Assembly: GCA_019323135.1 (NCBI GenBank)
Contig: JAHWHT010000002.1
Location: 1 to 34,904 of the forward strand
Source of the DNA: Candidatus Woesearchaeota archaeon
Lineage (GTDB): Archaea; Nanobdellota; Nanobdellia; Woesearchaeales; ARS49
DNA length: 34,904 nt
Reading direction: 5' to 3'
Shown here: piece after piece, positions 7,857 through 16,478 of the stretch
Numbering within the stretch: position 1 is the stretch's first letter
Layout: each line of letters starts with the position of its first letter
Position numbers and translations under genes: made by a program
The notes under the pieces: generated by a model
Seen by the model: only the letters and a program-made list of their open reading frames with translations
Databases searched by the model: none
Told to the model about the DNA's origin: nothing

Positions 7857-7879
7857 GCGTTCCTAGTTCAGTGATTTTC

Positions 7880-9151
7880 ATGGGGAAAACAGTAATCATC
7901 GGCCTCGATGGTGTGCCATACCATCTAATAGACAATTTGTCTAACAAAGGAGTTATGCCTAATTTTAAGAATCTTAAGGATAAAGGCATTTTCAAGGAGA
8001 TGGAATCTGCAATTCCTGAAATCTCTTCTGTTTCCTGGAGTTCGATAATAACCGGCGTAAATCCTGCAGAGCATGGTATTTTCGGTTTTATGGATATGAT
8101 TCCAGGGACTTACACCATGTCTTTTCCTAATTTTAACTCAATTAAAGCGCCTGCATTCTGGCAAACAATGGATGGAACACATGCAATAATCAATGTCCCT
8201 TCTACTTATCCTGCAAAACCAATGAACGGCTTTCATGTTGCAGGTTTTGTTGCACTAGATTTAGAAAATGCAGTTTATCCACAAAAATATATTCCTATGC
8301 TTGAAGAATTGAATTATCGTATTGATGTCGATTCTGAAAAAGGACACAGTTCTAAAGAATTATTTTTCAAGGATTTGCACAGAACCTTAGACGCAAGACA
8401 AAACACAGCCCTACAGCTATGGGATGAAACAAAATGGGATACCTTCATGTTTGTAATAACCGGAACAGATCGAATTGGTCATTTCTTATGGGACGCATAT
8501 GAAGATGAAAATCATGAGCATCACCAAAACTTTTTAGATTATTTCAAAAGAGTTGACGAAGTTGTAGGAAGCATCACAAATAAAATGTCAGACGAAGATT
8601 CTTTAATCATGATATCTGACCACGGCATGGGCTTGTCAGAAACAAATGTAATCGTCAACGCAGTATTGAAAAATAATGGCTTCTTAGAATTAAACGATGC
8701 AGAACGCCAAAATCACAATCACATCAAAGCAAATTCCAAAGCTTTTGCATTAGACCCAGGAAGAATATACTTAAACAAAGAAGGCAAATACCCTAAAGGC
8801 ACTGTCAAAAAAGAAGATGAAGAACAGATTCTCAAAGACTTAACAAGCACCTTTGAAAATTTAGAAAAAGACGGCAAAAAAGTTATAAAGAAAATTTTCA
8901 GAAAAGAAGAAGTCTACAGCGGCCCGCATCTAGAGCAAGCTCCAGACCTTATCCTGCTTTCAAATAAAGGATTTAATTTAAGAGGAAATTTAACCAAGAC
9001 TGAAATTTTTGACAAAGATATTTTTACTGGAATGCACACACAGGAAGATGCATTTTTATTTGTTAAAACACCAAAAAGCATAGAGCTTCCTAAAAATCCA
9101 AAAGTAACTGATGTTTTTCCAATTATAAATAAAATAAACGGTGATACTTAA
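7880..9151 (+). CDS. alkaline-phosphatase-family protein (type I phosphodiesterase/nucleotide pyrophosphatase-like)
   Basis: VIIGLDGVPYHL, SSVSWSSIITGVNPAEHGIFG (nucleophile region), TGTDRIGH and ISDHGM. The stop overlaps the next ATG (TAATG). Confidence 0.75.
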   Translation: MGKTVIIGLDGVPYHLIDNLSNKGVMPNFKNLKDKGIFKEMESAIPEISSVSWSSIITGVNPAEHGIFGFMDMIPGTYTMSFPNFNSIKAPAFWQTMDGTHAIINVPSTYPAKPMNGFHVAGFVALDLENAVYPQKYIPMLEELNYRIDVDSEKGHSSKELFFKDLHRTLDARQNTALQLWDETKWDTFMFVITGTDRIGHFLWDAYEDENHEHHQNFLDYFKRVDEVVGSITNKMSDEDSLIMISDHGMGLSETNVIVNAVLKNNGFLELNDAERQNHNHIKANSKAFALDPGRIYLNKEGKYPKGTVKKEDEEQILKDLTSTFENLEKDGKKVIKKIFRKEEVYSGPHLEQAPDLILLSNKGFNLRGNLTKTEIFDKDIFTGMHTQEDAFLFVKTPKSIELPKNPKVTDVFPIINKINGDT

Positions 9152-10674
9152 TGAAACCATGTAATGCAAATAAAACGTGCTGGAACTGTCCAGCAGCAAT
9201 GTTAAAAGGTAATGTTGACTTTAGGGCCTGCGGCCAGTCAAAAGAAAAGAAAAGACAATTGTCTGAAGAAAAACAAGTTATGATTGAATGTTCAAGAAGA
9301 AAAGAATTAGGTCATTTTGAGCCTACAATTACTTTTGAACAGTGTCCTGAATGGGAATTGAATGAAAATTATAATCTTTACATGCTAAAGAACATGCGCG
9401 TCATGATTCTTGGTCTTGACGGGTATCTTGGCTGGGCTCTTGCTTTGAAACTAGGAAAATTAGGTTTTAAAGTAAGTGGTATTGATAATTACTGGAGAAG
9501 AGATTGTGTCATGGAAAAAGGTGCACACACAGTTGTTCCTATCCAAAGAATGACAGAACGACTTCGCGCTGCTAAAGAAGTTCTAGGTATTGATATTAAT
9601 TTCAGAAAAATGGATATTCTTGACCGGCCTAAATTAAAAGAATTTTTAGAAGAAACAAAACCCGAAGCAATTATCCATTACGCAGAGTGTCCTAGCGCAC
9701 CATACAGCATGGTTGATGTTGATCACGCAGTTAAAGTTCAAGAAAATAATGTTTTAGGAACATTAGGATTATTGTGGCTGATAAAAGAAGTTGTTCCAGA
9801 ATCTTGCTTAATCAAATTAGGCACAATGGGAGAATACGGTGCTCCATTGACCGGAAGACCAATTTTTGAAGGAATTTTCCCTGCAAATGCAACCCTTAAG
9901 TGGGATGATAGAGAATGGAGTTTAGGTGGAGAACTAACTCCGAGAGATCCAGTAAGTTTTTATCACGTCAGTAAAGTTCAAGACACATTTAATTGTTATG
10001 AAGCCTGCAAGTATTGGTGGTTAAGATCTTATGATGTTATGCAGGGAGTTATTTACGGCGTTCATACTGAAGAAGTTGCTGCTGACCCCCGATTAAGAAC
10101 CAGATTAGATATGGATGAATGGTTTGGAACAGTAGTTAACAGATTTGTTACTCAATCCATTCTGGGAATGCCTTTGACAATCTATGGCGAAGGCGAGCAG
10201 CTTAGAGGATTTATTGCACTAGATGATGCAATGCAATGCATGGTTAGATTAATTTCCAGTCCTCCAGAAGCAGGACAATATGATGTTGTTAATCAGGTTT
10301 CTGGATTAATCAGAGTAAAAAACCTTGCAGAGACTGTTGCAAATGTTGCTAAGGATTTTGGAATAAACACTAAGATTCAAAGAGTGGAAAATCCAAGAGT
10401 TGAGGCAGATAAGCATCCATTAGAAGTTATCTCAACTAAACTACCTGCAGATTTAGGTTTTAATGCAAGCATTACTTTTGATGCAGAAATCAGAAAAATG
10501 TTTGAATTATTAACTCAGCCAGAAATCAAAGCAAGGATTGAAGAGAAAAAACACGCAGTTATGCCTAAAACAAGATGGGATGGTGTAAAGCAGGAAAGTG
10601 AATCTTTTGAGACTTATGATCCTGGAACAAAGAATCTTGAAGATGGACATAAGGGCGTACTGCACACAAAATAA
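9151..10674 (+). CDS. sqd1: UDP-sulfoquinovose synthase (SQD1/Agl3 family SDR) with 81-aa Cys-rich N-terminal extension
   Basis: The body from M82 aligns along its whole length with plant SQD1 as I recall it. Shared blocks are GxDGYxGWAxAL, ECPSAPYSM, NNVLGTLxLL, KLGTMGEYG, SFYHVSKVQD, QGVIYG, RLDMDEWFGTVVNRF, PLTIYGEGEQLRGF and NPRVEA. Confidence 0.85.
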   Translation: MKPCNANKTCWNCPAAMLKGNVDFRACGQSKEKKRQLSEEKQVMIECSRRKELGHFEPTITFEQCPEWELNENYNLYMLKNMRVMILGLDGYLGWALALKLGKLGFKVSGIDNYWRRDCVMEKGAHTVVPIQRMTERLRAAKEVLGIDINFRKMDILDRPKLKEFLEETKPEAIIHYAECPSAPYSMVDVDHAVKVQENNVLGTLGLLWLIKEVVPESCLIKLGTMGEYGAPLTGRPIFEGIFPANATLKWDDREWSLGGELTPRDPVSFYHVSKVQDTFNCYEACKYWWLRSYDVMQGVIYGVHTEEVAADPRLRTRLDMDEWFGTVVNRFVTQSILGMPLTIYGEGEQLRGFIALDDAMQCMVRLISSPPEAGQYDVVNQVSGLIRVKNLAETVANVAKDFGINTKIQRVENPRVEADKHPLEVISTKLPADLGFNASITFDAEIRKMFELLTQPEIKARIEEKKHAVMPKTRWDGVKQESESFETYDPGTKNLEDGHKGVLHTK

Positions 10675-10675
10675 A

Positions 10676-10990
10676 ATGGAGCTTACCGATTCAAATTTTG
10701 AGCAAGAGGTTTATCATTCAGATATTCCTGTTTTTGTTGATTTTTGGGCATCTTGGTGTCCACCCTGCAAGATGATGGAGCCAGTGATTAATTCATTGGA
10801 AAAAGAATATGACGGCAGGGTTAAGATTTGCAAGATAAATATTGACAAGAATAGACTTGCTGCCTCAAAATTTGACATCAAAGGGGTTCCTTTATTTATT
10901 TTATTCAAGAATGGAGAAATCGTAGATCAAGCAGTTGCAGCAAAAACAGAAAGTCAATTAAAAGAAATGATTAATCAAGTATTACCATGA
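10676..10990 (+). CDS. trx: thioredoxin (WCPPC active site)
   Basis: VFVDFWASWCPPCKMM..GVPLFILFKNGE. ATG 10676 lies directly after the sqd1 stop. Confidence 0.85.
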   Translation: MELTDSNFEQEVYHSDIPVFVDFWASWCPPCKMMEPVINSLEKEYDGRVKICKINIDKNRLAASKFDIKGVPLFILFKNGEIVDQAVAAKTESQLKEMINQVLP

Positions 10991-11961: not shown

Positions 11962-11991
11962 TTTATATATGGCATACATAATTCTATGTAT
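11962..11991 (+). promoter_or_regulatory. TATA box (TTTATATA 11962-11969) plus inverted repeat ATACATA-N4-TATGTAT (11974-11991); candidate RHH operator
   Basis: A perfect 7-bp inverted repeat lies between the TATA box and the predicted transcription start. It is immediately upstream of two RHH genes. SD-like GAGGG/AAGGT precedes ATG 12009. Confidence 0.45.
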
Positions 11992-12008: not shown

Positions 12009-12341
12009 ATGGAAAACAGGACTACAATCCAAATTACAGAGGATTTAAGAAAACAACTCAAAGTGCTTGCAGCCAGAAGAGACATCTCTTACCAAGAATT
12101 ACTGCAAGATATGGTATCTGTTTTCAAAGAATTAAATCAAGAAAAAACAATTATTTCCATTCCTTCAATGCTTGCTGGCAAAGTCAATGAAAAGATTGAA
12201 AAAACTGATTTTAGTTCAGTAAGCGAATACACCACATTTGTTTTGCGACAAATGCTTATGGAAACAGCACACAAACAAGACATCGCTTCATCTGATGAAG
12301 AAAAAATAAAAGATAAATTAAGAAAATTAGGTTATTTGTGA
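12009..12341 (+). CDS. ribbon-helix-helix (CopG/Arc/MetJ-like) protein with two RHH-like modules and an acidic linker plus ..KLRKLGYL tail
   Basis: N-terminus TTIQITEDLRKQLKVLAARRDISYQELLQDMV fits the RHH pattern. The second module IISIPSMLAGKVNEKIEKTDFSSVSEYTTFVLRQM is paralogous to the next ORF. Confidence 0.7.
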   Translation: MENRTTIQITEDLRKQLKVLAARRDISYQELLQDMVSVFKELNQEKTIISIPSMLAGKVNEKIEKTDFSSVSEYTTFVLRQMLMETAHKQDIASSDEEKIKDKLRKLGYL

Positions 12342-12350
12342 GGTAACAAA

Positions 12351-12569
12351 ATGAAAATTGAAATTCCTGAAGATTTAATAAAAAAATTACAAAAAAGAGT
12401 TGATTCAACAGATGAGTTTGATTCTGTTGAAGCATATGTCAGCTACATACTTAAGCAGGTTGTAGAAAGACTCGAAACTGAAAATAAAGAAGATGAAAAG
12501 CCAGCTTTTAGCGAAGAAGATGAAGCAAAAGTAAAAGAAAGGCTAAGAAGTTTAGGATACTTGGACTGA
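12351..12569 (+). CDS. ribbon-helix-helix protein with acidic linker plus ..RLRSLGYLD tail
   Basis: KIEIPEDLIKKLQKRVDSTDEFDSVEAYVSYILKQVV fits the RHH pattern. SD GAGGT lies upstream. Confidence 0.7.
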   Translation: MKIEIPEDLIKKLQKRVDSTDEFDSVEAYVSYILKQVVERLETENKEDEKPAFSEEDEAKVKERLRSLGYLD

Positions 12570-12579
12570 GGTGGAAAAA

Positions 12580-13398
12580 ATGGATCATTTAGATGAATTA
12601 GAAAGTAAAAGCATATACATTATTCGTGAAGCATACAAACAGTATAAAAATCTTGCAATGTTATGGTCGATTGGTAAAGATTCAACAGCTTTGTTATGGC
12701 TCTGCAGAAAAGCATTTTTTGGAAGAGTTCCATTTCCAGTAGTGCATATTGATACAAGCTATAAATTCAAGGAAATTTATGAATTTAGAGATAAGTTTAC
12801 CAAAGAATGGGATTTAAAGTTGGTTGTTGGCAAGAACGAAGAAGCTATTGCTGCAGGCATGAGTCCTACTGAAGGAAATAAATTTGAGTGCTGTAACCAA
12901 TTAAAGACTGTTGCATTAAAACAGACTATTGCAAAGCAGAAGTATACTGCATTGCTATTAGGCATCAGAAGAGACGAGCACGGCATAAGAGCAAAAGAAA
13001 GAGTTTTCTCTCCTAGAAATCAGCAGTTCAAATGGGATTACAAGAATCAGCCTCCAGAACTATGGGATCAGTATAAATCAAAACAGGCAGAAGATGAACA
13101 CTTAAGAGTTCACCCGATTTTGCACTGGACTGAACAGGATATCTGGGATTATGTCAAAAGAGAAAAAATTCCAATTACAGAGTTATATTTTGCAAAAAAG
13201 ATGGAAAATGGCGAATCAAAAAGATATAGAAGTATTGGTTGTGAAACTTGCTGTAATCCAATCTGTTCTAATGCAGACGATGTTGACAAGATAGTTGAGG
13301 AATTAAGAACTACAAAAGTCGCAGAGCGTTCAGGCAGAGCACAAGACAAAGAATCTGCGTACATCATGCAGAAGCTTCGGTCTCTCGGATACATGTGA
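12580..13398 (+). CDS. cysD: sulfate adenylyltransferase subunit 2 (CysD, PP-loop ATP pyrophosphatase fold) with extra Cys motifs
   Basis: LESKSIYIIREA, SIGKDS (PP-loop), LLGIRRDEHGIRAKERVFS and HPILHWTEQDIWDY are colinear with E. coli CysD as I recall it. ATG 12580 follows SD GAGGTGG. Confidence 0.85.
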   Translation: MDHLDELESKSIYIIREAYKQYKNLAMLWSIGKDSTALLWLCRKAFFGRVPFPVVHIDTSYKFKEIYEFRDKFTKEWDLKLVVGKNEEAIAAGMSPTEGNKFECCNQLKTVALKQTIAKQKYTALLLGIRRDEHGIRAKERVFSPRNQQFKWDYKNQPPELWDQYKSKQAEDEHLRVHPILHWTEQDIWDYVKREKIPITELYFAKKMENGESKRYRSIGCETCCNPICSNADDVDKIVEELRTTKVAERSGRAQDKESAYIMQKLRSLGYM

Positions 13399-13402
13399 TA
13401 AT

Positions 13403-13609
13403 ATGGTTGACAAACACATTAGAAGCATTACAAAAGGCTTGAGTTGGAGGGTTCTTGCATCCCTCACAACTGTTATTTTAGTTTATGCTTTCACTGGAAA
13501 ATTGGCTCTAGCAGCAGGCATAGGTATACTAGAAGTTATTACCAAACTGCTCATCTATTATGTTCATGAACGGGCCTGGAATAATGTAACATGGGGGAAA
13601 ATAAAATGA
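13403..13609 (+). CDS. DUF2061-type small two-TM membrane protein
   Basis: SITKGLSWRVLASLTT..YYVHERAWN is the DUF2061 signature as I recall it. Confidence 0.6.
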   Translation: MVDKHIRSITKGLSWRVLASLTTVILVYAFTGKLALAAGIGILEVITKLLIYYVHERAWNNVTWGKIK

Positions 13610-14052
13610 GCAATTGCATATTTTGTAAAATAGAAAAAGGAGAAGTTCCTGCAAAGAAAATATATGAATCTAAATATTTTTTTGCAATACTCGATGCACA
13701 CCCAATAGTTGAAGGACACTGTCTTTTAATTCCAAAGAGACATTATGAAACTATTCATAAAATGAATAAAGAAGAAAGCCTGCAATTCGGTGAAGACTGT
13801 ATTACTCTTGCCAAAATGCTAAAAAATTACTGGCCAGATCTGACAATAGCAAACTCAAATGGAAAATTCGCAAGCCAAGCAGTACCGCATTATCACGTCC
13901 ACTTCATTCCTAGGCAGGAAGGAGATAGGCTTTGGGACGAAGATAAATCCAAGATATCATTAGACGTTAGTTCTGGTTTTGAAAGATTAAAACCATCCAA
14001 AGATGAATTAGAACAATTAGCAAACAAACTAATAGGTGATACACATGAATGA
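13606..14052 (+). CDS. HIT-family nucleotide hydrolase/transferase
   Basis: CIFCKI..., followed by the histidine triad [12 protein letters not shown] overlap with the DUF2061 gene. Confidence 0.85.
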
Positions 14053-15295
14053 ACAAGAACATTTTAAATTTGCAATCGTTGGTCACGTAGACCACGGTAA
14101 ATCTACTCTTATTGGCAGGTTATTCTATGATACTGGTTCCTTGCCAGAGGGAAAGATGGAAGAGCTCAAGAAAACCTGTGATGAATTAGGCAAAGATATT
14201 GAATTTGGTTTTATCATGGATCATTTGCAGGAAGAAAGAGAGCAAGGCGTAACTATTGACACTGCTCAGGCTTTTTTCAAGACAGATAAAAGACATTATG
14301 TCATAATCGATGCTCCAGGACATAAAGAATTCACCAAAAACATGATTACTGGAGCTTCACAAGCAGAAGCAGCTTTATTGATTGTTGATGCTGATGAAGG
14401 AGTTCAAGAGCAGACAAAAAGACACGCATACATCTTAAGCATGCTTGGATTAAAGCAGGTTATTGTTGTAATGAACAAGATGGACTTAGTAGAATACAAA
14501 GAAGAAAGATTCAAAGAAGTTGAAAAGAATTTGCTTGAATTTTTAGGTTCATTGAACATAAAACCATCTTACATAATTCCAATTTCTGCAAAGTTGGGCG
14601 ATAATATCGCAAAGAAATCAGAAAACATGTCTTGGTACACAGGAAAAACTGTTCTTGAAGCTCTGGACACATTTGAATCTCTTGCCAGCCTAAGTAATGC
14701 ACCACTTAGATACCCTATTCAAGATGTTTACAAGTTTGATGACAAGCGAATTTTGGCAGGCAGGGTTGAGGCAGGCATTCTTAAGAAAGGTAACCGATTA
14801 TTATTTTTGCCGTCTAACAAAGAAAGCACAATTACTACAATTGAAGACATGAATGGCGAAGTAGAAAGCGTTGAAGCAGGCAAAAGCACAGGAATAACAA
14901 TAGAACATCCGTTATTCGTAGAGCGAGGAGAAATTGCTTGCGATCCGGATGCAGAAAAGCCTACTGTTACAACCAGATTCAGAGGAAAAGTTTTCTGGAT
15001 GTCTAAGCTGCCGTTCAATAAATCTGAAAAAATAACTCTTAAATGCGCTACTCAAGAAGTTGAGTGTGTTATGGAAAAGATTGAGAAAAAGTTAGATTCC
15101 TCAACACTCGCAGTTCTTGAAGAAGATGCTTCTGAAATTAAAGAATGGGAAGTTGGAGAAATTGTCTTCAAAACAGAGGCTCCGGTTGTAATCGAGGATT
15201 TTAACGAAACTCCTGAATTAGGCCGGTTTGTCTTGGTTAAAGGAGAAGATGTTTGTGCAGGCGGAATTGTCACACATAAAGACTTAGAGAACTAA
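14045..15295 (+). CDS. cysN: sulfate adenylyltransferase subunit 1 (CysN GTPase), no fused APS kinase domain
   Basis: [14 protein letters not shown] (G1), DAPGHKEF (G3), NKMD (G4) and EF-Tu-like domains II/III. About 416 aa, which leaves no room for CysC. Confidence 0.85.
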
Positions 15296-15325: not shown

Positions 15326-15640
15326 ATGGGAATATTTAATAAAGGATTAGATGGGTTTATCGAGCAAGTATCTAAAAATAAACCAACAAAAATAGAAATT
15401 ACAACAGATATACAAGAAGGCGGGGACGCACATTATGTTTGTGAGTATTTTGGTGTTTTTAAAGGCATATATGAAGACAGAAAACCTATTATTGCTCATA
15501 AGAAATATGGCGGAACATTAACTAATCACGCAGAAATGGATGAAGCAATGGATCAAGACATCAAAAAACTTCAAGAACTGGATATCCCTATCTTTAAAAC
15601 AAAAGGATTTCAAGATGATTCAGATAAAACAAATAATTAA
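15326..15640 (+). CDS. hypothetical protein
   Basis: ORF with SD AGGTGG upstream and no recognisable motif. It overlaps the next gene by 26 nt. Confidence 0.45.
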   Translation: MGIFNKGLDGFIEQVSKNKPTKIEITTDIQEGGDAHYVCEYFGVFKGIYEDRKPIIAHKKYGGTLTNHAEMDEAMDQDIKKLQELDIPIFKTKGFQDDSDKTNN

Positions 15641-16478
15641 ACTATTCAGACCAGCACAGTGGTACAAGAATTTACTAGTTTTTGTCCCTATTATTTTCTC
15701 AGGCAATTTACTGCATATGAATTCGCTTTTGCTTACTTTTATTGGTTTTATGAGTCTTTGTGCAGTCTCTTCTGCAAATTACATACTAAATGACATGATA
15801 GATCGCAAAAGAGATAAAAAGCATCCAGAAAAGCGTAAGAGACCTATTGCATCTGGCAAAATCAAGATTTGGCAGGCAAGCATATTGACAATAATGTTAT
15901 TAGCAATTTCTATTGGTCTTGCAGCGCCACTGAATATTAATTTCTTTTACGCAATCGCAGTATTGTTTGGTATCACTTTACTGTATTCTCTCCTGCTTAA
16001 AAAAGAGCCTTTTGTAGATATAATCACAATAGCAATTAATTTTGTAGTACGGGCAGTCGCAGGCGCTTTAATCCTTAGCATTGAAGTATCTCCTTGGCTT
16101 ATTGCATGTGTTTTCTTTTTAGCAGTATTTCTTGTTTCAGGCAAAAGACATGCAGATGCAATGTTCCTTGGCGAAAAAGCAAAAAAACATAGAAGCACAC
16201 TTAAAGTGTACACTCCAGAAATCACCAGTTCTTTGATGATAATCACTACTGCGTTATTGGCTACTGCTTACAGCTTATACTCTTTTTTCAGCGATAACAC
16301 GCCTTATTTGATTTTCACTCTGCCTTTTGCACTCTATTTAATTTTCAGGTATTTCTACTTAGTTTATTCTGGTTCCAAGATAGCACGGCATCCAGAAAGA
16401 ATTTTTTTAGACTTAAGAATGGATATTGGCATGCTTTTATGGGCTGCTGTTACTTTTGTTATACTTTATTTCTTATAG
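15615..16478 (+). CDS. UbiA-family prenyltransferase, decaprenyl-phosphate phosphoribosyltransferase (DPPR synthase)-like
   Basis: NDMIDRKRDKKHPEKRKRPIASG (NDxxDxxxD..K.xRPxxSG), polytopic. The start MIQIKQIIKLFRPAQWYKN is typical of the family. Confidence 0.75.
   Translation: MIQIKQIIKLFRPAQWYKNLLVFVPIIFSGNLLHMNSLLLTFIGFMSLCAVSSANYILNDMIDRKRDKKHPEKRKRPIASGKIKIWQASILTIMLLAISIGLAAPLNINFFYAIAVLFGITLLYSLLLKKEPFVDIITIAINFVVRAVAGALILSIEVSPWLIACVFFLAVFLVSGKRHADAMFLGEKAKKHRSTLKVYTPEITSSLMIITTALLATAYSLYSFFSDNTPYLIFTLPFALYLIFRYFYLVYSGSKIARHPERIFLDLRMDIGMLLWAAVTFVILYFL

What the first reader, a model, noticed from the sequence alone, without database searches (positions are those of the whole stretch)
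12009..13398. Two RHH proteins and CysD share the same C-terminal tail (acidic patch then K/R-LR-x-LGY-L/M)
Three consecutive ORFs end in ..SSDEEKIKDKLRKLGYL*, ..SEEDEAKVKERLRSLGYLD* and ..DKESAYIMQKLRSLGYM*. The underlying codons differ (aaattaagaaaattaggttatttg, aggctaagaagtttaggatacttg, aagcttcggtctctcggatacatg). The similarity is therefore maintained at the protein level and is not a recent DNA duplication. In canonical CysD the C-terminus (E. coli ..SMELKKRQGYF, from memory) is a conserved family feature, so the RHH proteins appear to carry a CysD-tail mimic. In addition, residues 47-110 of the first RHH protein are a paralogue of the whole second one (both have an I.IP... strand, F(S/D)SVSEY..(F/Y)(V/I)L(R/K)Q, an acidic linker and the tail). 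My hypothesis is that the tail is a docking peptide for a common partner, such as the CysN GTPase or another factor. That would let DNA-binding regulators sense or compete with ATP-sulfurylase assembly, as a partner-switch coupling enzyme state to transcription. I know of no description of such a module.
Basis: partly seen in the sequence, partly recalled or inferred. Interest (0 to 1): 0.75.

Follow-up and report, generated by a model that had tools for sequence, protein, structure and literature searches.

The report
Sulfate-operon repressors with portable tail
The two small genes are paralogous DNA-binding repressors from a widespread, uncharacterised archaeal family that sits in front of sulfate-activation genes, and they carry a nearly invariant 20-residue tail that also occurs on some enzymes of the same pathway, whereas the CysD resemblance covers only its last 8-9 residues and CysN is not the general partner.

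Summary
Three consecutive + strand ORFs end in KLRKLGYL, RLRSLGYLD and KLRSLGYM, with different codons. L[RK].LGY occurs nowhere else in the six-frame translation of the window.

- RHH1 residues 47-110 and RHH2 are true paralogues (39% identity, E 2e-15), so their tails are shared by descent.
- Both belong to a large family of ~70-aa ribbon-helix-helix proteins: at least 492 loci in GTDB species genomes and 498 tail-bearing clusters at 50% identity.
- Family members lie directly upstream of ATP-sulfurylase genes of either type. Among 80 loci, 43 have Sat only and 26 have CysD and/or CysN.
- The tail (F/Y-S/T-x-E-D-E-E-K-V-K-E-R-L-R-x-L-G-Y-L-D) stays the same whichever enzyme follows, so CysN is not its general partner.
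- Conserved operators lie just upstream of these genes: the palindrome ATACATA-N4-TATGTAT in the window, and 10-bp-phased TAATTA arrays in other lineages. This points to autoregulated repressors.
- CysD's ending is the CysD family's own C-terminus. It matches a tail profile only over its last 9 residues (8.8 bits).

The full tail also sits at the C-terminus of sulfatase and phosphodiesterase-type enzymes and of an APS kinase. It therefore looks like a portable interaction module, but its partner is unidentified.

The parts
11962..11969 (+). TATA-box-like element (tttatata) of the operon promoter
   Evidence: Read directly from the sequence. An equivalent TTTATATA precedes the palindrome in homologous loci L010, L012 and L014. 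Its function is inferred.
11974..11991 (.). Candidate operator: perfect palindrome ATACATA-attc-TATGTAT, lying between the TATA box and the RHH1 start codon
   Evidence: It is the only match in the window with up to 2 mismatches allowed. The same palindrome lies just upstream of the RHH1-type gene in 10 of 15 loci, against 9 hits elsewhere in 917 kb.
12009..12146 (+). RHH1, N-terminal ribbon-helix-helix module (residues 1-46, strand NRTTIQ)
   Evidence: Pfam RHH_1 at 25.7 bits, above the 20.5 cutoff, over residues 4-36. R4, T5, T6 and Q8 are invariant in 50 homologues.
12147..12287 (+). RHH1, second RHH-like module (residues 47-93, strand TIISIP), paralogous to RHH2 and to the widespread YTTVSIP-type family
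   Evidence: BLASTP against RHH2 gives 39% identity, E 2e-15. Against a Thermoplasmata family member it gives 44% identity, E 2e-20.
12288..12338 (+). RHH1 tail (SSDEEKIKDKLRKLGYL)
   Evidence: The tail profile scores it at 41.9 bits. AF2 predicts a helix at residues 94-107 followed by G-Y-L. L104 and G108 are invariant and L107 and Y109 at least 90% conserved.
12351..12506 (+). RHH2 body (strand KIEIP, two helices, acidic linker)
   Evidence: 57 homologues, which NCBI and JGI name CopG family or Arc/MetJ-type RHH. AF2 mean pLDDT is 87.7, with helices at 7-19 and 26-49. The profile matches the NikR RHH domain weakly, E 0.4. No Pfam or NCBIfam model hits it.
12507..12566 (+). RHH2 tail (FSEEDEAKVKERLRSLGYLD), the canonical invariant module
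   Evidence: The tail profile scores it at 55.8 bits. E58, R64, L65, G69 and Y70 are invariant and K60, V61, K62 and L68 at least 90% conserved in 108 sequences. AF2 predicts a helix at 55-67, with mean pLDDT 94 for residues 61-70.
12571..13398 (+). cysD (sulfate adenylyltransferase subunit 2); probable true start is ATG 12580
   Evidence: Pfam PAPS_reduct 1e-44. NCBIfam PRK05253 at 366 bits. 1zun_A matches at 2.3e-65.
13369..13395 (+). CysD C-terminal nonapeptide QKLRSLGYM, the look-alike of the RHH tail
   Evidence: It aligns to the C-terminus of 1zun_A..EEKKRQGY. It scores 8.8 bits against the tail profile, where the best unrelated gene among more than 1,200 scores 6.5. It is conserved as MQKLR(A/S)LGYM in DPANN-type CysD, whereas Thermoplasmata CysD ends MEDRKKEGYF.
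13403..13609 (+). DUF2061 small membrane protein of the operon. It has no tail here, but relatives carry a tail-like extension.
   Evidence: Pfam DUF2061 9e-20. The L009, L012 and L022 orthologues end ..AKAGVIKKLRDLGYI.
13591..14052 (+). HIT-family protein of the operon
   Evidence: Pfam HIT 3.5e-20. It occupies the same position in L009, L010 and L012.
14036..15295 (+). cysN (EF-1alpha-like GTPase subunit)
   Evidence: NCBIfam TIGR02034 CysN at 359.6 bits, above the 336.1 cutoff. Pfam GTP_EFTU 1e-52.

Best explanation
RHH1 and RHH2 are paralogous ribbon-helix-helix repressors that head and autoregulate the cysD-DUF2061-HIT-cysN sulfate-activation operon.

They belong to a widespread archaeal family that has also been transferred to CPR bacteria. 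The members are ~70-aa CopG-like proteins that sit directly upstream of ATP-sulfurylase genes of either type. They bind operators overlapping the promoter. In the window this is the palindrome ATACATA-N4-TATGTAT at 11974-11991. In the main family it is an array of TAATTA hexamers phased at 10 bp.

The shared tail consists of a flexible acidic linker, a 13-residue polar helix (EDEEKVKERLRxL) and a Gly-Tyr-hydrophobic cap. RHH1 and RHH2 inherited it from their common ancestor. It is a portable protein-protein interaction module.

My committed mechanism is inferred, not shown. The tail's primary job is intrinsic to the repressor: it contacts a neighbouring repressor (tail-to-tail or tail-to-RHH), so that several dimers load cooperatively on the phased operator array. 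Enzymes that have acquired the same tail (AlkP-type phosphodiesterases and sulfatases, an APS kinase, and possibly DUF2061) can plug into that contact and feed enzyme level back onto transcription.

CysD's ending is the CysD family's own C-terminus. It resembles the tail only in the last 8-9 residues, a helix-end pattern L-+-x-L-G-Y-hydrophobic. It is not the template for the RHH tail.
For: Shown:
- Paralogy of RHH1 47-110 with RHH2.
- Family size and spread: 73 and 57 close homologues; at least 492 loci in GTDB species genomes; 498 cluster representatives with E <= 1e-3 in an exhaustive tail-profile search. Lineages include Woesearchaeota, Thermoplasmatota, Altiarchaeales, MSBL1, Archaeoglobus, Theionarchaea, Freyarchaeia and Patescibacteria.
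- Synteny: the gene lies immediately upstream of Sat-DHH-APSK-sulfotransferase or of CysD-CysN in 69 of 80 loci.
- The tail is unchanged whichever enzyme type follows.
- Operators: palindrome in 10 of 15 RHH1 loci versus 9 hits in the remaining 917 kb; TAATTA-N4-TAATTA in 50 of 73 loci (108 hits) versus 19 elsewhere. Hexamer spacing is exactly 10 bp in 63 of 97 cases, 20 bp in 14 and 30 bp in 5.
- The arrays lie between the TATA box and the start codon in archaea, and between a TTGACT and a TATAAT in a Patescibacteria locus.
- Portability: the full tail sits at the extreme C-terminus of Sulfatase (P0290), Phosphodiest (P0346, P0364) and PglZ-like (P0387) proteins, of an APSK-RHH fusion (P0381) and of a Theionarchaeal APSK (L066, 26 bits). 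Several of these lie in clusters that also hold a tailed RHH gene or Sat.
- AF2 predicts the tail as a confident helix, mean pLDDT 94 for residues 61-70.
- Literature: a 'putative copG transcription factor' heading the archaeal ATPS-pApase-PDE-APSK cluster is noted in PMC8268124.
Against: - No binding, oligomerisation or DNA-binding experiment exists, and no multimer model could be run here.
- Almost every residue of the tail helix is conserved, including the polar faces. That fits a conserved heterologous partner at least as well as self-association.
- The AF2 model of RHH1 is poor (pLDDT 67) and shows no docking of the tail.
- RHH2 has no Pfam or NCBIfam hit, and Foldseek matches to RHH antitoxins are not significant, E > 1.
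- The Woesearchaeal RHH2 subtype has no operator of its own that I could identify.
- Pathway proteins are over-represented among C-termini of the form L..LGY-hydrophobic (CysD, many APS kinases, DUF2061). So a real functional link to CysD cannot be excluded.
Confidence: 0.5

Rival explanations
1. Hub-and-spoke docking. The tail is a short linear motif that docks onto one still unidentified, conserved hub protein. Regulators and enzymes carrying the tail compete for it, giving a partner switch that couples pathway state to transcription.
For: - The tail is portable onto unrelated enzyme folds.
- All faces of the helix are invariant across phyla and in CPR bacteria.
- One protein carries two tandem tails (P0274).
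- The architecture of RHH plus flexible linker plus C-terminal helix is that of RHH antitoxins such as ParD, which are the top though non-significant Foldseek hits.
Against: - No protein family is common to all clusters. Sat, CysD/N, APSK, DHH, sulfotransferase and PDE are each missing from many.
- In most genomes the RHH protein is the only tail bearer in the locus.
Confidence: 0.22
2. First reader's model. The RHH tails mimic the CysD tail and dock on CysN, so that the regulators compete with CysD for the GTPase.
For: - In the window and in DPANN relatives, RHH1, RHH2 and CysD (and DUF2061 in L009, L012 and L022) all end in (K/R)L(K/R)xLGY-hydrophobic and are co-operonic with an EF-1alpha-like CysN.
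- DPANN CysD tails are the best non-RHH, non-appended scorers against the tail profile.
Against: - 43 of 80 loci have Sat and no CysD or CysN within 8 kb.
- The RHH tail does not co-vary with the CysD tail type.
- Tail-bearing enzymes occur next to Sat (L066, L095).
- CysD-like proteins with the tail occur without an adjacent CysN (L016, L019, L087).
- The CysD match is only 9 residues and 8.8 bits.
- Whether the CysD C-terminus touches CysN in 1ZUN could not be checked, because the paper is not held.
Confidence: 0.08
3. Sensor tail. The tail senses pathway state directly. It either contributes to a pocket for APS, PAPS or pAp, or its invariant tyrosine is sulfated by the cluster's sulfotransferase, and this changes DNA binding.
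For: - The only thing common to all clusters is the chemistry: production of APS, and of PAPS where an APS kinase is present.
- Y70, K60, K62 and R64 are invariant or nearly so.
- A sulfotransferase is present in many Thermoplasmata clusters.
Against: - The tail also sits on enzymes with no RHH domain.
- DPANN clusters, including the window, have no APS kinase or canonical sulfotransferase.
- Basic residues flank the Tyr, which from general knowledge is unlike known Tyr-sulfation sites.
- A 20-residue peptide is a poor small-molecule pocket.
Confidence: 0.08
4. Purely structural ending. L-x-x-L-G-Y-hydrophobic is just a common way to cap a C-terminal helix, and neither the RHH tail nor the CysD tail mediates any interaction.
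For: Similar endings occur in unrelated proteins. Examples are the canonical C-terminal helix of APS kinases..KKLKELGYLE, and a glutaredoxin ending ..KLKERLQKLGL in the PDB.
Against: - 20 residues are nearly invariant over archaeal phyla, while the DNA-binding body and the linker vary.
- The module has been transplanted repeatedly onto other enzymes together with its acidic linker.
- Only 1 unrelated gene among ~620 carries even the relaxed motif.
Confidence: 0.07

Closest known systems
Putative CopG-type regulator heading the archaeal sulfate-assimilation cluster (PYCH_17520 of Pyrococcus yayanosii; PMC8268124)
   Same: A small CopG/RHH gene is the first gene of a cluster with ATP sulfurylase, DHH pApase, type I phosphodiesterase and APS kinase. 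That synteny matches what I found in 69 of 80 loci.
   Different: The protein is only mentioned in passing as 'potentially regulates'. No operator, tail or distribution is described. The window has the CysDN type of sulfurylase, a duplicated regulator (tandem-RHH RHH1 plus RHH2) and no APS kinase.
Mnt repressor of phage P22 (RHH with a C-terminal helical tetramerisation domain) and other cooperative RHH repressors (Arc, CopG, omega)
   Same: An N-terminal RHH DNA-binding module is combined with a C-terminal helix. Operators are made of repeated sites, which implies binding by several dimers. What is known about Mnt comes from my own knowledge.
   Different: Here the helix is 13 residues on a long acidic linker, is invariant across phyla, and also occurs on enzymes. 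Tetramerisation was not tested.
RHH type II antitoxins (ParD, RelB, CcdA, FitA) and conditional cooperativity
   Same: RHH plus a flexible C-terminal segment that binds a protein partner and thereby tunes operator binding. ParD2, ParD1 and VapB-type chains are the top Foldseek hits (E > 1, not significant).
   Different: There is no toxin gene. The neighbours are metabolic enzymes, and the tail is shared with those enzymes rather than being complementary to them.
CysD C-terminus (..ME-x-K/R-K-x-x-G-Y-F) of bacterial sulfate adenylyltransferase subunit 2 (1ZUN)
   Same: The window's CysD tail aligns with it position for position, and both end in G-Y-hydrophobic.
   Different: The DPANN-type tail has Leu at positions -1 and -4 relative to Gly (KLRSLGYM). 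That is what makes it resemble the RHH tail. The RHH tail has a further 11 conserved residues that CysD lacks.
Hub-binding C-terminal peptides (archaeal PIP boxes for PCNA, the SSB acidic tip, the ribosomal stalk tail for EF-1alpha-type GTPases)
   Same: A short, conserved C-terminal peptide on a flexible acidic linker is carried by several unrelated proteins of one process. This comparison comes from my own knowledge.
   Different: No hub has been identified. The residues after Tyr vary (L, LD, LG, ME, and an internal copy in P0274), so a free carboxylate is not part of the motif.

Membership tests
Ribbon-helix-helix (CopG/Arc/MetJ) DNA-binding proteins | Sequence match to an RHH model (strand, helix A, G-x-S/T/N turn, helix B) | tested here: met
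   RHH1 residues 4-36 hit Pfam RHH_1 at 25.7 bits, above the 20.5 cutoff. This applies to the N-terminal module of RHH1 only.
Ribbon-helix-helix (CopG/Arc/MetJ) DNA-binding proteins | The same feature, for RHH2 and for the second module of RHH1 | tested here: inconclusive
   No Pfam or NCBIfam hit. The profile matches the NikR RHH domain at E 0.4. hhalign against the RHH1 N-module gives E 0.005 over 19 columns, in register. Foldseek's top hits are RHH antitoxins but with E > 1. Sources name the homologues CopG or Arc/MetJ-type.
Ribbon-helix-helix (CopG/Arc/MetJ) DNA-binding proteins | Binds repeated or palindromic operators, usually at its own promoter | tested here: met
   The evidence is indirect (comparative only). 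There is a conserved palindrome and 10-bp-phased TAATTA arrays, enriched several-hundred-fold just upstream of the genes. No binding assay exists.
Ribbon-helix-helix (CopG/Arc/MetJ) DNA-binding proteins | Dimerises through an antiparallel two-stranded sheet | not testable with these tools
   Only single-chain AF2 was available. No strands were predicted in the monomer models.
CysD (sulfate adenylyltransferase subunit 2) | PP-loop/PAPS_reduct domain and full-length match to CysD models | tested here: met
   PF01507 at 1e-44. PRK05253 at 366 bits, above the 195 cutoff, covering residues 2-275. 1zun_A at 2.3e-65. It falls below the cutoff of the bacterial equivalog models TIGR02039 and PRK12563, so it is a divergent, archaeal-type subfamily.
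CysD (sulfate adenylyltransferase subunit 2) | Co-operonic CysN GTPase | tested here: met
   14036-15295 matches TIGR02034 CysN at 359.6 bits, above the 336.1 cutoff.
   43 of 80 loci have Sat only, and 26 have CysD and/or CysN.
   Thermoplasmata CysD ends MEDRKKEGYF while the adjacent RHH ends RLRALGYLD.
RHH type II antitoxins | Adjacent toxin gene whose product is bound by the C-terminal segment | tested here: not met
   The neighbours are CysD, Sat, AlkP-type enzymes and the like. No toxin family appears in the operon.
Membrane-targeting amphipathic C-terminal helices (MinD/FtsA type) | Hydrophobic, positively charged amphipathic helix | tested here: not met
   Mean hydrophobicity is about -0.6, hydrophobic moment 0.3-0.5 and net charge about 0, and the helix is preceded by a poly-acidic linker.

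The most novel reading that the evidence does not exclude
The tail is a pathway-wide docking peptide. Enzymes of sulfate activation and sulfation (AlkP-type phosphodiesterases and sulfatases, APS kinase, DUF2061 and, in DPANN, CysD) and their own RHH repressor use the same C-terminal helix to bind one another or a common hub. The amount or assembly state of the enzymes is thereby read out directly at the operator. This would be a short-linear-motif partner switch in archaeal metabolism, conserved from DPANN to Asgard archaea and exported to CPR bacteria.
Probability: 0.2. Interest if true: 0.8.

Novelty: new variant of a known kind. Interest (0 to 1): 0.55.

Why it matters
Regulation of sulfate activation and of glycan or lipid sulfation in archaea is essentially unstudied. 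This work defines a candidate regulator family present in hundreds of archaeal and CPR genomes. It also defines its candidate operators (TAATTA arrays phased at 10 bp, and ATACATA-N4-TATGTAT). These give directly testable regulon predictions.

The 20-residue tail is more conserved than the DNA-binding domain and recurs on enzymes of the same clusters. That is an unusual prokaryotic case of a portable short linear motif. If it links enzymes to their repressor, it would be a new kind of feedback.

For annotation, the result shows that the CysD resemblance should not be over-read, and that a family model for these 'hypothetical / CopG' proteins is missing from Pfam and NCBIfam.

Tried and rejected
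- **Tail-only homolog search.** I replaced it with 42-aa (A3) and 31-aa (A5) alignments.
- **Literature on the CysD C-terminus in the CysD-CysN complex.** Mougous 2006 is not held. PMC5770160 and PMC4373884 say nothing about the tail, and two further searches found nothing.
- **Literature on the motif string.** No relevant paper.
- **AF2 of RHH1.** Low confidence (pLDDT 67) and uninformative about tail docking.
- **Foldseek of the RHH2 model against the PDB.** No significant match.
- **PDB sequence search with the tail profile.** Only chance fragments.
- **Context look-ups.** Those for P0285 (Lrp plus tail) and P0387 landed on contigs of 548 and 1,147 bp and gave no context. P0285 and P0331 include RHH helix B before the tail, so they may be gene fusions or assembly chimeras. 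I do not count them as independent tail acquisitions.
- **HbYX or degron-type motif.** Rejected because the residues after Tyr vary and one copy is internal.
- **Membrane-targeting helix.** Rejected on hydrophobicity and charge.
- **ESCRT MIM1-like reading.** One homologue is named CdvB by JGI. I did not pursue this, because (from my own knowledge) most host lineages lack Vps4/CdvC.
- **TAATTA-N4-TAATTA in the window.** No enrichment: 4 hits at 2 mismatches against 9 expected. The Woesearchaeal RHH2 subtype therefore has no identified operator.
Full report
**1. Observation**

The three consecutive + strand ORFs are 12009-12341 (RHH1, 110 aa), 12351-12569 (RHH2, 72 aa) and 12571-13398 (CysD, 275 aa). 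The probable true start of CysD is ATG 12580. In a six-frame translation of the 34.9-kb window (35% G+C), L[RK].LGY occurs three times only, and all three are these C-termini. The third ORF is CysD: PAPS_reduct 1e-44; NCBIfam PRK05253 at 366 bits covering the protein to its last residue; 1zun_A at 2e-65. CysN lies at 14036-15295, with a DUF2061 membrane protein and a HIT protein between them. The surrounding window is a DPANN-type archaeal glycan-synthesis region. It holds a UDP-sulfoquinovose-synthase-like gene, a thioredoxin, an epimerase, glycosyltransferases and an AlkP-type phosphodiesterase, but no APS kinase or sulfotransferase.

**2. The two small proteins are paralogues, so their tails are shared by descent**

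RHH1 residues 4-36 pass the Pfam RHH_1 threshold. RHH1 residues 47-110 align with the whole of RHH2 at 39% identity, E 2e-15. They align even better with a Thermoplasmata relative: 44% identity, E 2e-20. RHH1 is therefore an extra N-terminal RHH module fused to a member of the RHH2-like family.

**3. The family is large and is tied to sulfate activation, not to CysD/CysN**

- Close homologues of RHH1 (73) and RHH2 (57) are from Woesearchaeota/Nanoarchaeota, plus a few Patescibacteria. The tail is their most conserved part.
The best 80 come from Woesearchaeota, many Thermoplasmatota, Theionarchaea, Methanofastidiosia, Freyarchaeia, Nanohaloarchaea, Methanobacteriota, Patescibacteria and Dojkabacteria.
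- I called genes in these loci and labelled them by BLASTP against reference proteins. The small gene is nearly always first and directly upstream of one of three arrangements: Sat-(~330 aa)-APS kinase-sulfotransferase; CysD-CysN-(~330 aa)-APS kinase-sulfotransferase; or, in DPANN, CysD-[DUF2061]-[HIT]-CysN-AlkP-type protein.
- Counts among the 80 loci: Sat only 43; CysD and/or CysN 26; neither 11, several of which are at contig ends.
- The tail F/Y-S/T-x-E-D-E-E-K-V-K-E-R-L-R-(A/S)-L-G-Y-L-D is the same in all of them. Where CysD has the bacterial ending ..AMEDRKKEGYF, the RHH next to it still ends ..RLRALGYLD.
- A further profile search added Altiarchaeales, MSBL1, Micrarchaeota and Archaeoglobus members. 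All are 68-74 aa and are named CopG family or RHH by their sources.
- No Pfam or NCBIfam model covers the family.
- One paper mentions the homologous position in Pyrococcus yayanosii as a 'putative copG transcription factor'. It heads a conserved cluster of ATP sulfurylase, DHH pApase, phosphodiesterase and APS kinase. This identifies the ~330-aa gene.

**4. They look like autoregulated repressors**

In the window, a perfect palindrome ATACATA-attc-TATGTAT (11974-11991) lies between a TATA-like element (11962-11969) and the RHH1 start codon. It is the only such site in the window. With up to 2 mismatches allowed, the same palindrome lies just upstream of the RHH1-type gene in 10 of 15 loci, against 9 hits in the other 917 kb.

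Genes of the main (YTTVSIP-strand) type are preceded by arrays of TAATTA-like hexamers. TAATTA-N4-TAATTA with up to 1 mismatch gives 108 hits in 50 of 73 loci, against 19 hits elsewhere. Successive hexamers are exactly 10 bp apart in 63 of 97 cases, 20 bp in 14 and 30 bp in 5. There are up to seven hexamers per promoter. The arrays lie downstream of the TATA box in archaea and between -35-like and -10-like hexamers in a Patescibacteria locus. Each strand type goes with its own operator type. This is comparative evidence for DNA binding and for loading of several dimers on one face of the helix. No experiment exists.

**5. The CysD tail is the CysD family's own ending**

The window tail aligns with the C-terminus of P. 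syringae CysD..GSMEEKKRQGY(F). A profile of the RHH tail scores as follows:
- RHH2: 55.8 bits.
- RHH1: 41.9 bits.
- Window CysD: 8.8 bits, over residues 267-275 only.
- Other DPANN-type CysD: 8-12 bits.
- Best unrelated gene among more than 1,200: 6.5 bits.

The resemblance is therefore positional and real, but short. It consists of a basic, Leu-rich helix end followed by G-Y-hydrophobic. The same pattern ends many APS kinases (..KKLKELGYLE) and a glutaredoxin in the PDB. This suggests a common way of finishing a C-terminal helix. CysD-like proteins with this ending also occur without an adjacent CysN (L016, L019, L087). I could not check whether the CysD C-terminus touches CysN in 1ZUN.

**6. 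The full tail is a portable module**

An exhaustive search of 1.84 billion cluster representatives with a 31-column tail profile found 498 proteins at E <= 1e-3. Most are 60-80-aa RHH proteins. The tail, with its acidic linker but without any RHH part, also sits at the extreme C-terminus of these proteins:
- A 429-aa sulfatase-family protein.
- 500-aa and 506-aa type I phosphodiesterase-family proteins.
- A PglZ-like AlkP protein.
- Several fragments of such enzymes.

Further cases:
- One APS kinase is fused to an RHH-plus-tail unit.
- A Theionarchaeal APS kinase has the tail appended after its normal end, scoring 26 bits.
- One RHH protein has two tails in tandem.
- In close relatives of the window's organism, the DUF2061 protein has a 16-residue extension ending KKLRDLGYI.

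These enzymes lie in glycan or sulfation clusters alongside a tailed RHH gene, a CysN-like GTPase or Sat.

AF2 predicts the tail as a helix (RHH2 residues 55-67; mean pLDDT 94 for residues 61-70) followed by G-Y-L-D. The helix is polar, with mean hydrophobicity about -0.6 and net charge about 0, so it is not a membrane anchor. The residues after Tyr vary, so a free carboxylate is not recognised.

**7. Mechanism**

Shown or strongly supported:
- The regulator family and its synteny with sulfate activation.
- The conserved operators.
- The paralogy of RHH1 and RHH2.
- The portability of the tail.
- The independence of the tail from CysD/CysN.

Inferred: what the tail binds. In most genomes the RHH protein is the only tail bearer in the locus, and its operators are phased arrays. 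I therefore favour a repressor-intrinsic role: contacts between neighbouring repressors that make binding cooperative, as in Mnt-like RHH proteins. Enzyme-borne tails would be later additions that plug into the same contact.

The main rival is a still unknown hub protein. Conservation of every face of the helix, and its retention in CPR bacteria, fit that at least as well.

**8. Novelty and verdict**

The specific interpretation (a CysD mimic that docks on CysN) is not supported. The general idea of a docking tail is plausible and is strengthened by the enzyme-borne copies. RHH repressors with C-terminal interaction segments are a known kind. This family, its operators and its invariant, portable tail are undescribed as far as the searches show. 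I rate it a new variant of a known kind, with moderate interest.

Noticed in passing
window 9151-10990: The UDP-sulfoquinovose-synthase-like protein (NCBIfam NF041015, 412 bits, below its 575 cutoff) has an ~80-aa Cys-rich N-terminal extension. It is followed by a thioredoxin whose listed ORF overlaps its 3' end. No APS/PAPS reductase, APS kinase or sulfotransferase is visible in the window, so the source of sulfite for SQD1 is unclear.
   Followed up: partly
L009, L012, L022 (DUF2061 orthologues) versus window 13403-13609: In close relatives, the DUF2061 membrane protein of the operon carries a 16-residue C-terminal extension ending KKL(R/K)DLGYI. The window's copy (68 aa) lacks it. In those genomes four proteins of one operon end in this pattern.
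   Followed up: partly
L066 8206-8793 (Theionarchaea): An APS kinase has a complete RHH-type tail (..PPENYTFEDEEIIKKRLKALGYL) appended after its normal C-terminal helix. It lies next to a tailed RHH gene and Sat.
   Followed up: partly
P0274 (107 aa), P0002 (185 aa): P0274 is an RHH protein with two tails in tandem, the first one internal. P0002 is an RHH1-RHH2 fusion in a relative of the window's organism, arising from read-through or a frameshift of the 9-bp gap.
   Followed up: no
L001 6345-7962: Two tandem CysD paralogues (266 and 267 aa) with identical tails lie between RHH1 and DUF2061-CysN. RHH2 is at the far end of that operon, after a 241-aa AlkP-like protein.
   Followed up: no
DPANN-type loci (L001, L003, L008, L013-L015, L047, L050, L051) and window 7871-9151: DPANN cysDN operons lack an APS kinase and a canonical sulfotransferase, but nearly always include an AlkP-superfamily protein of 241 aa or ~426 aa (Phosphodiest family). 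The window and its closest relatives also have a HIT protein between cysD and cysN. This suggests an APS-based, non-canonical sulfation route.
   Followed up: no
window 15326-15640: A 104-aa ORF with no family match lies directly after cysN. An ORF of similar size (94-104 aa), followed by a gene of ~287-291 aa (the window's counterpart at 15540-16478 is a UbiA-type prenyltransferase), occupies the same position in L009, L010, L012 and L022.
   Followed up: no
L057 and L059 (CysD): In my gene calls, two CysD genes continue for 6-15 residues beyond ..LGYM (..GYMIIPLIITNFISSSIF and ..GYMLLLNYF). This may reflect loss of the stop codon or an assembly error.
   Followed up: no
L095 1-1926: Two tandem phosphodiesterase-family paralogues both end in the full tail (..YTAEDEEKIKERLRALGYL[GD]). 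A Sat gene lies two genes away.
   Followed up: no
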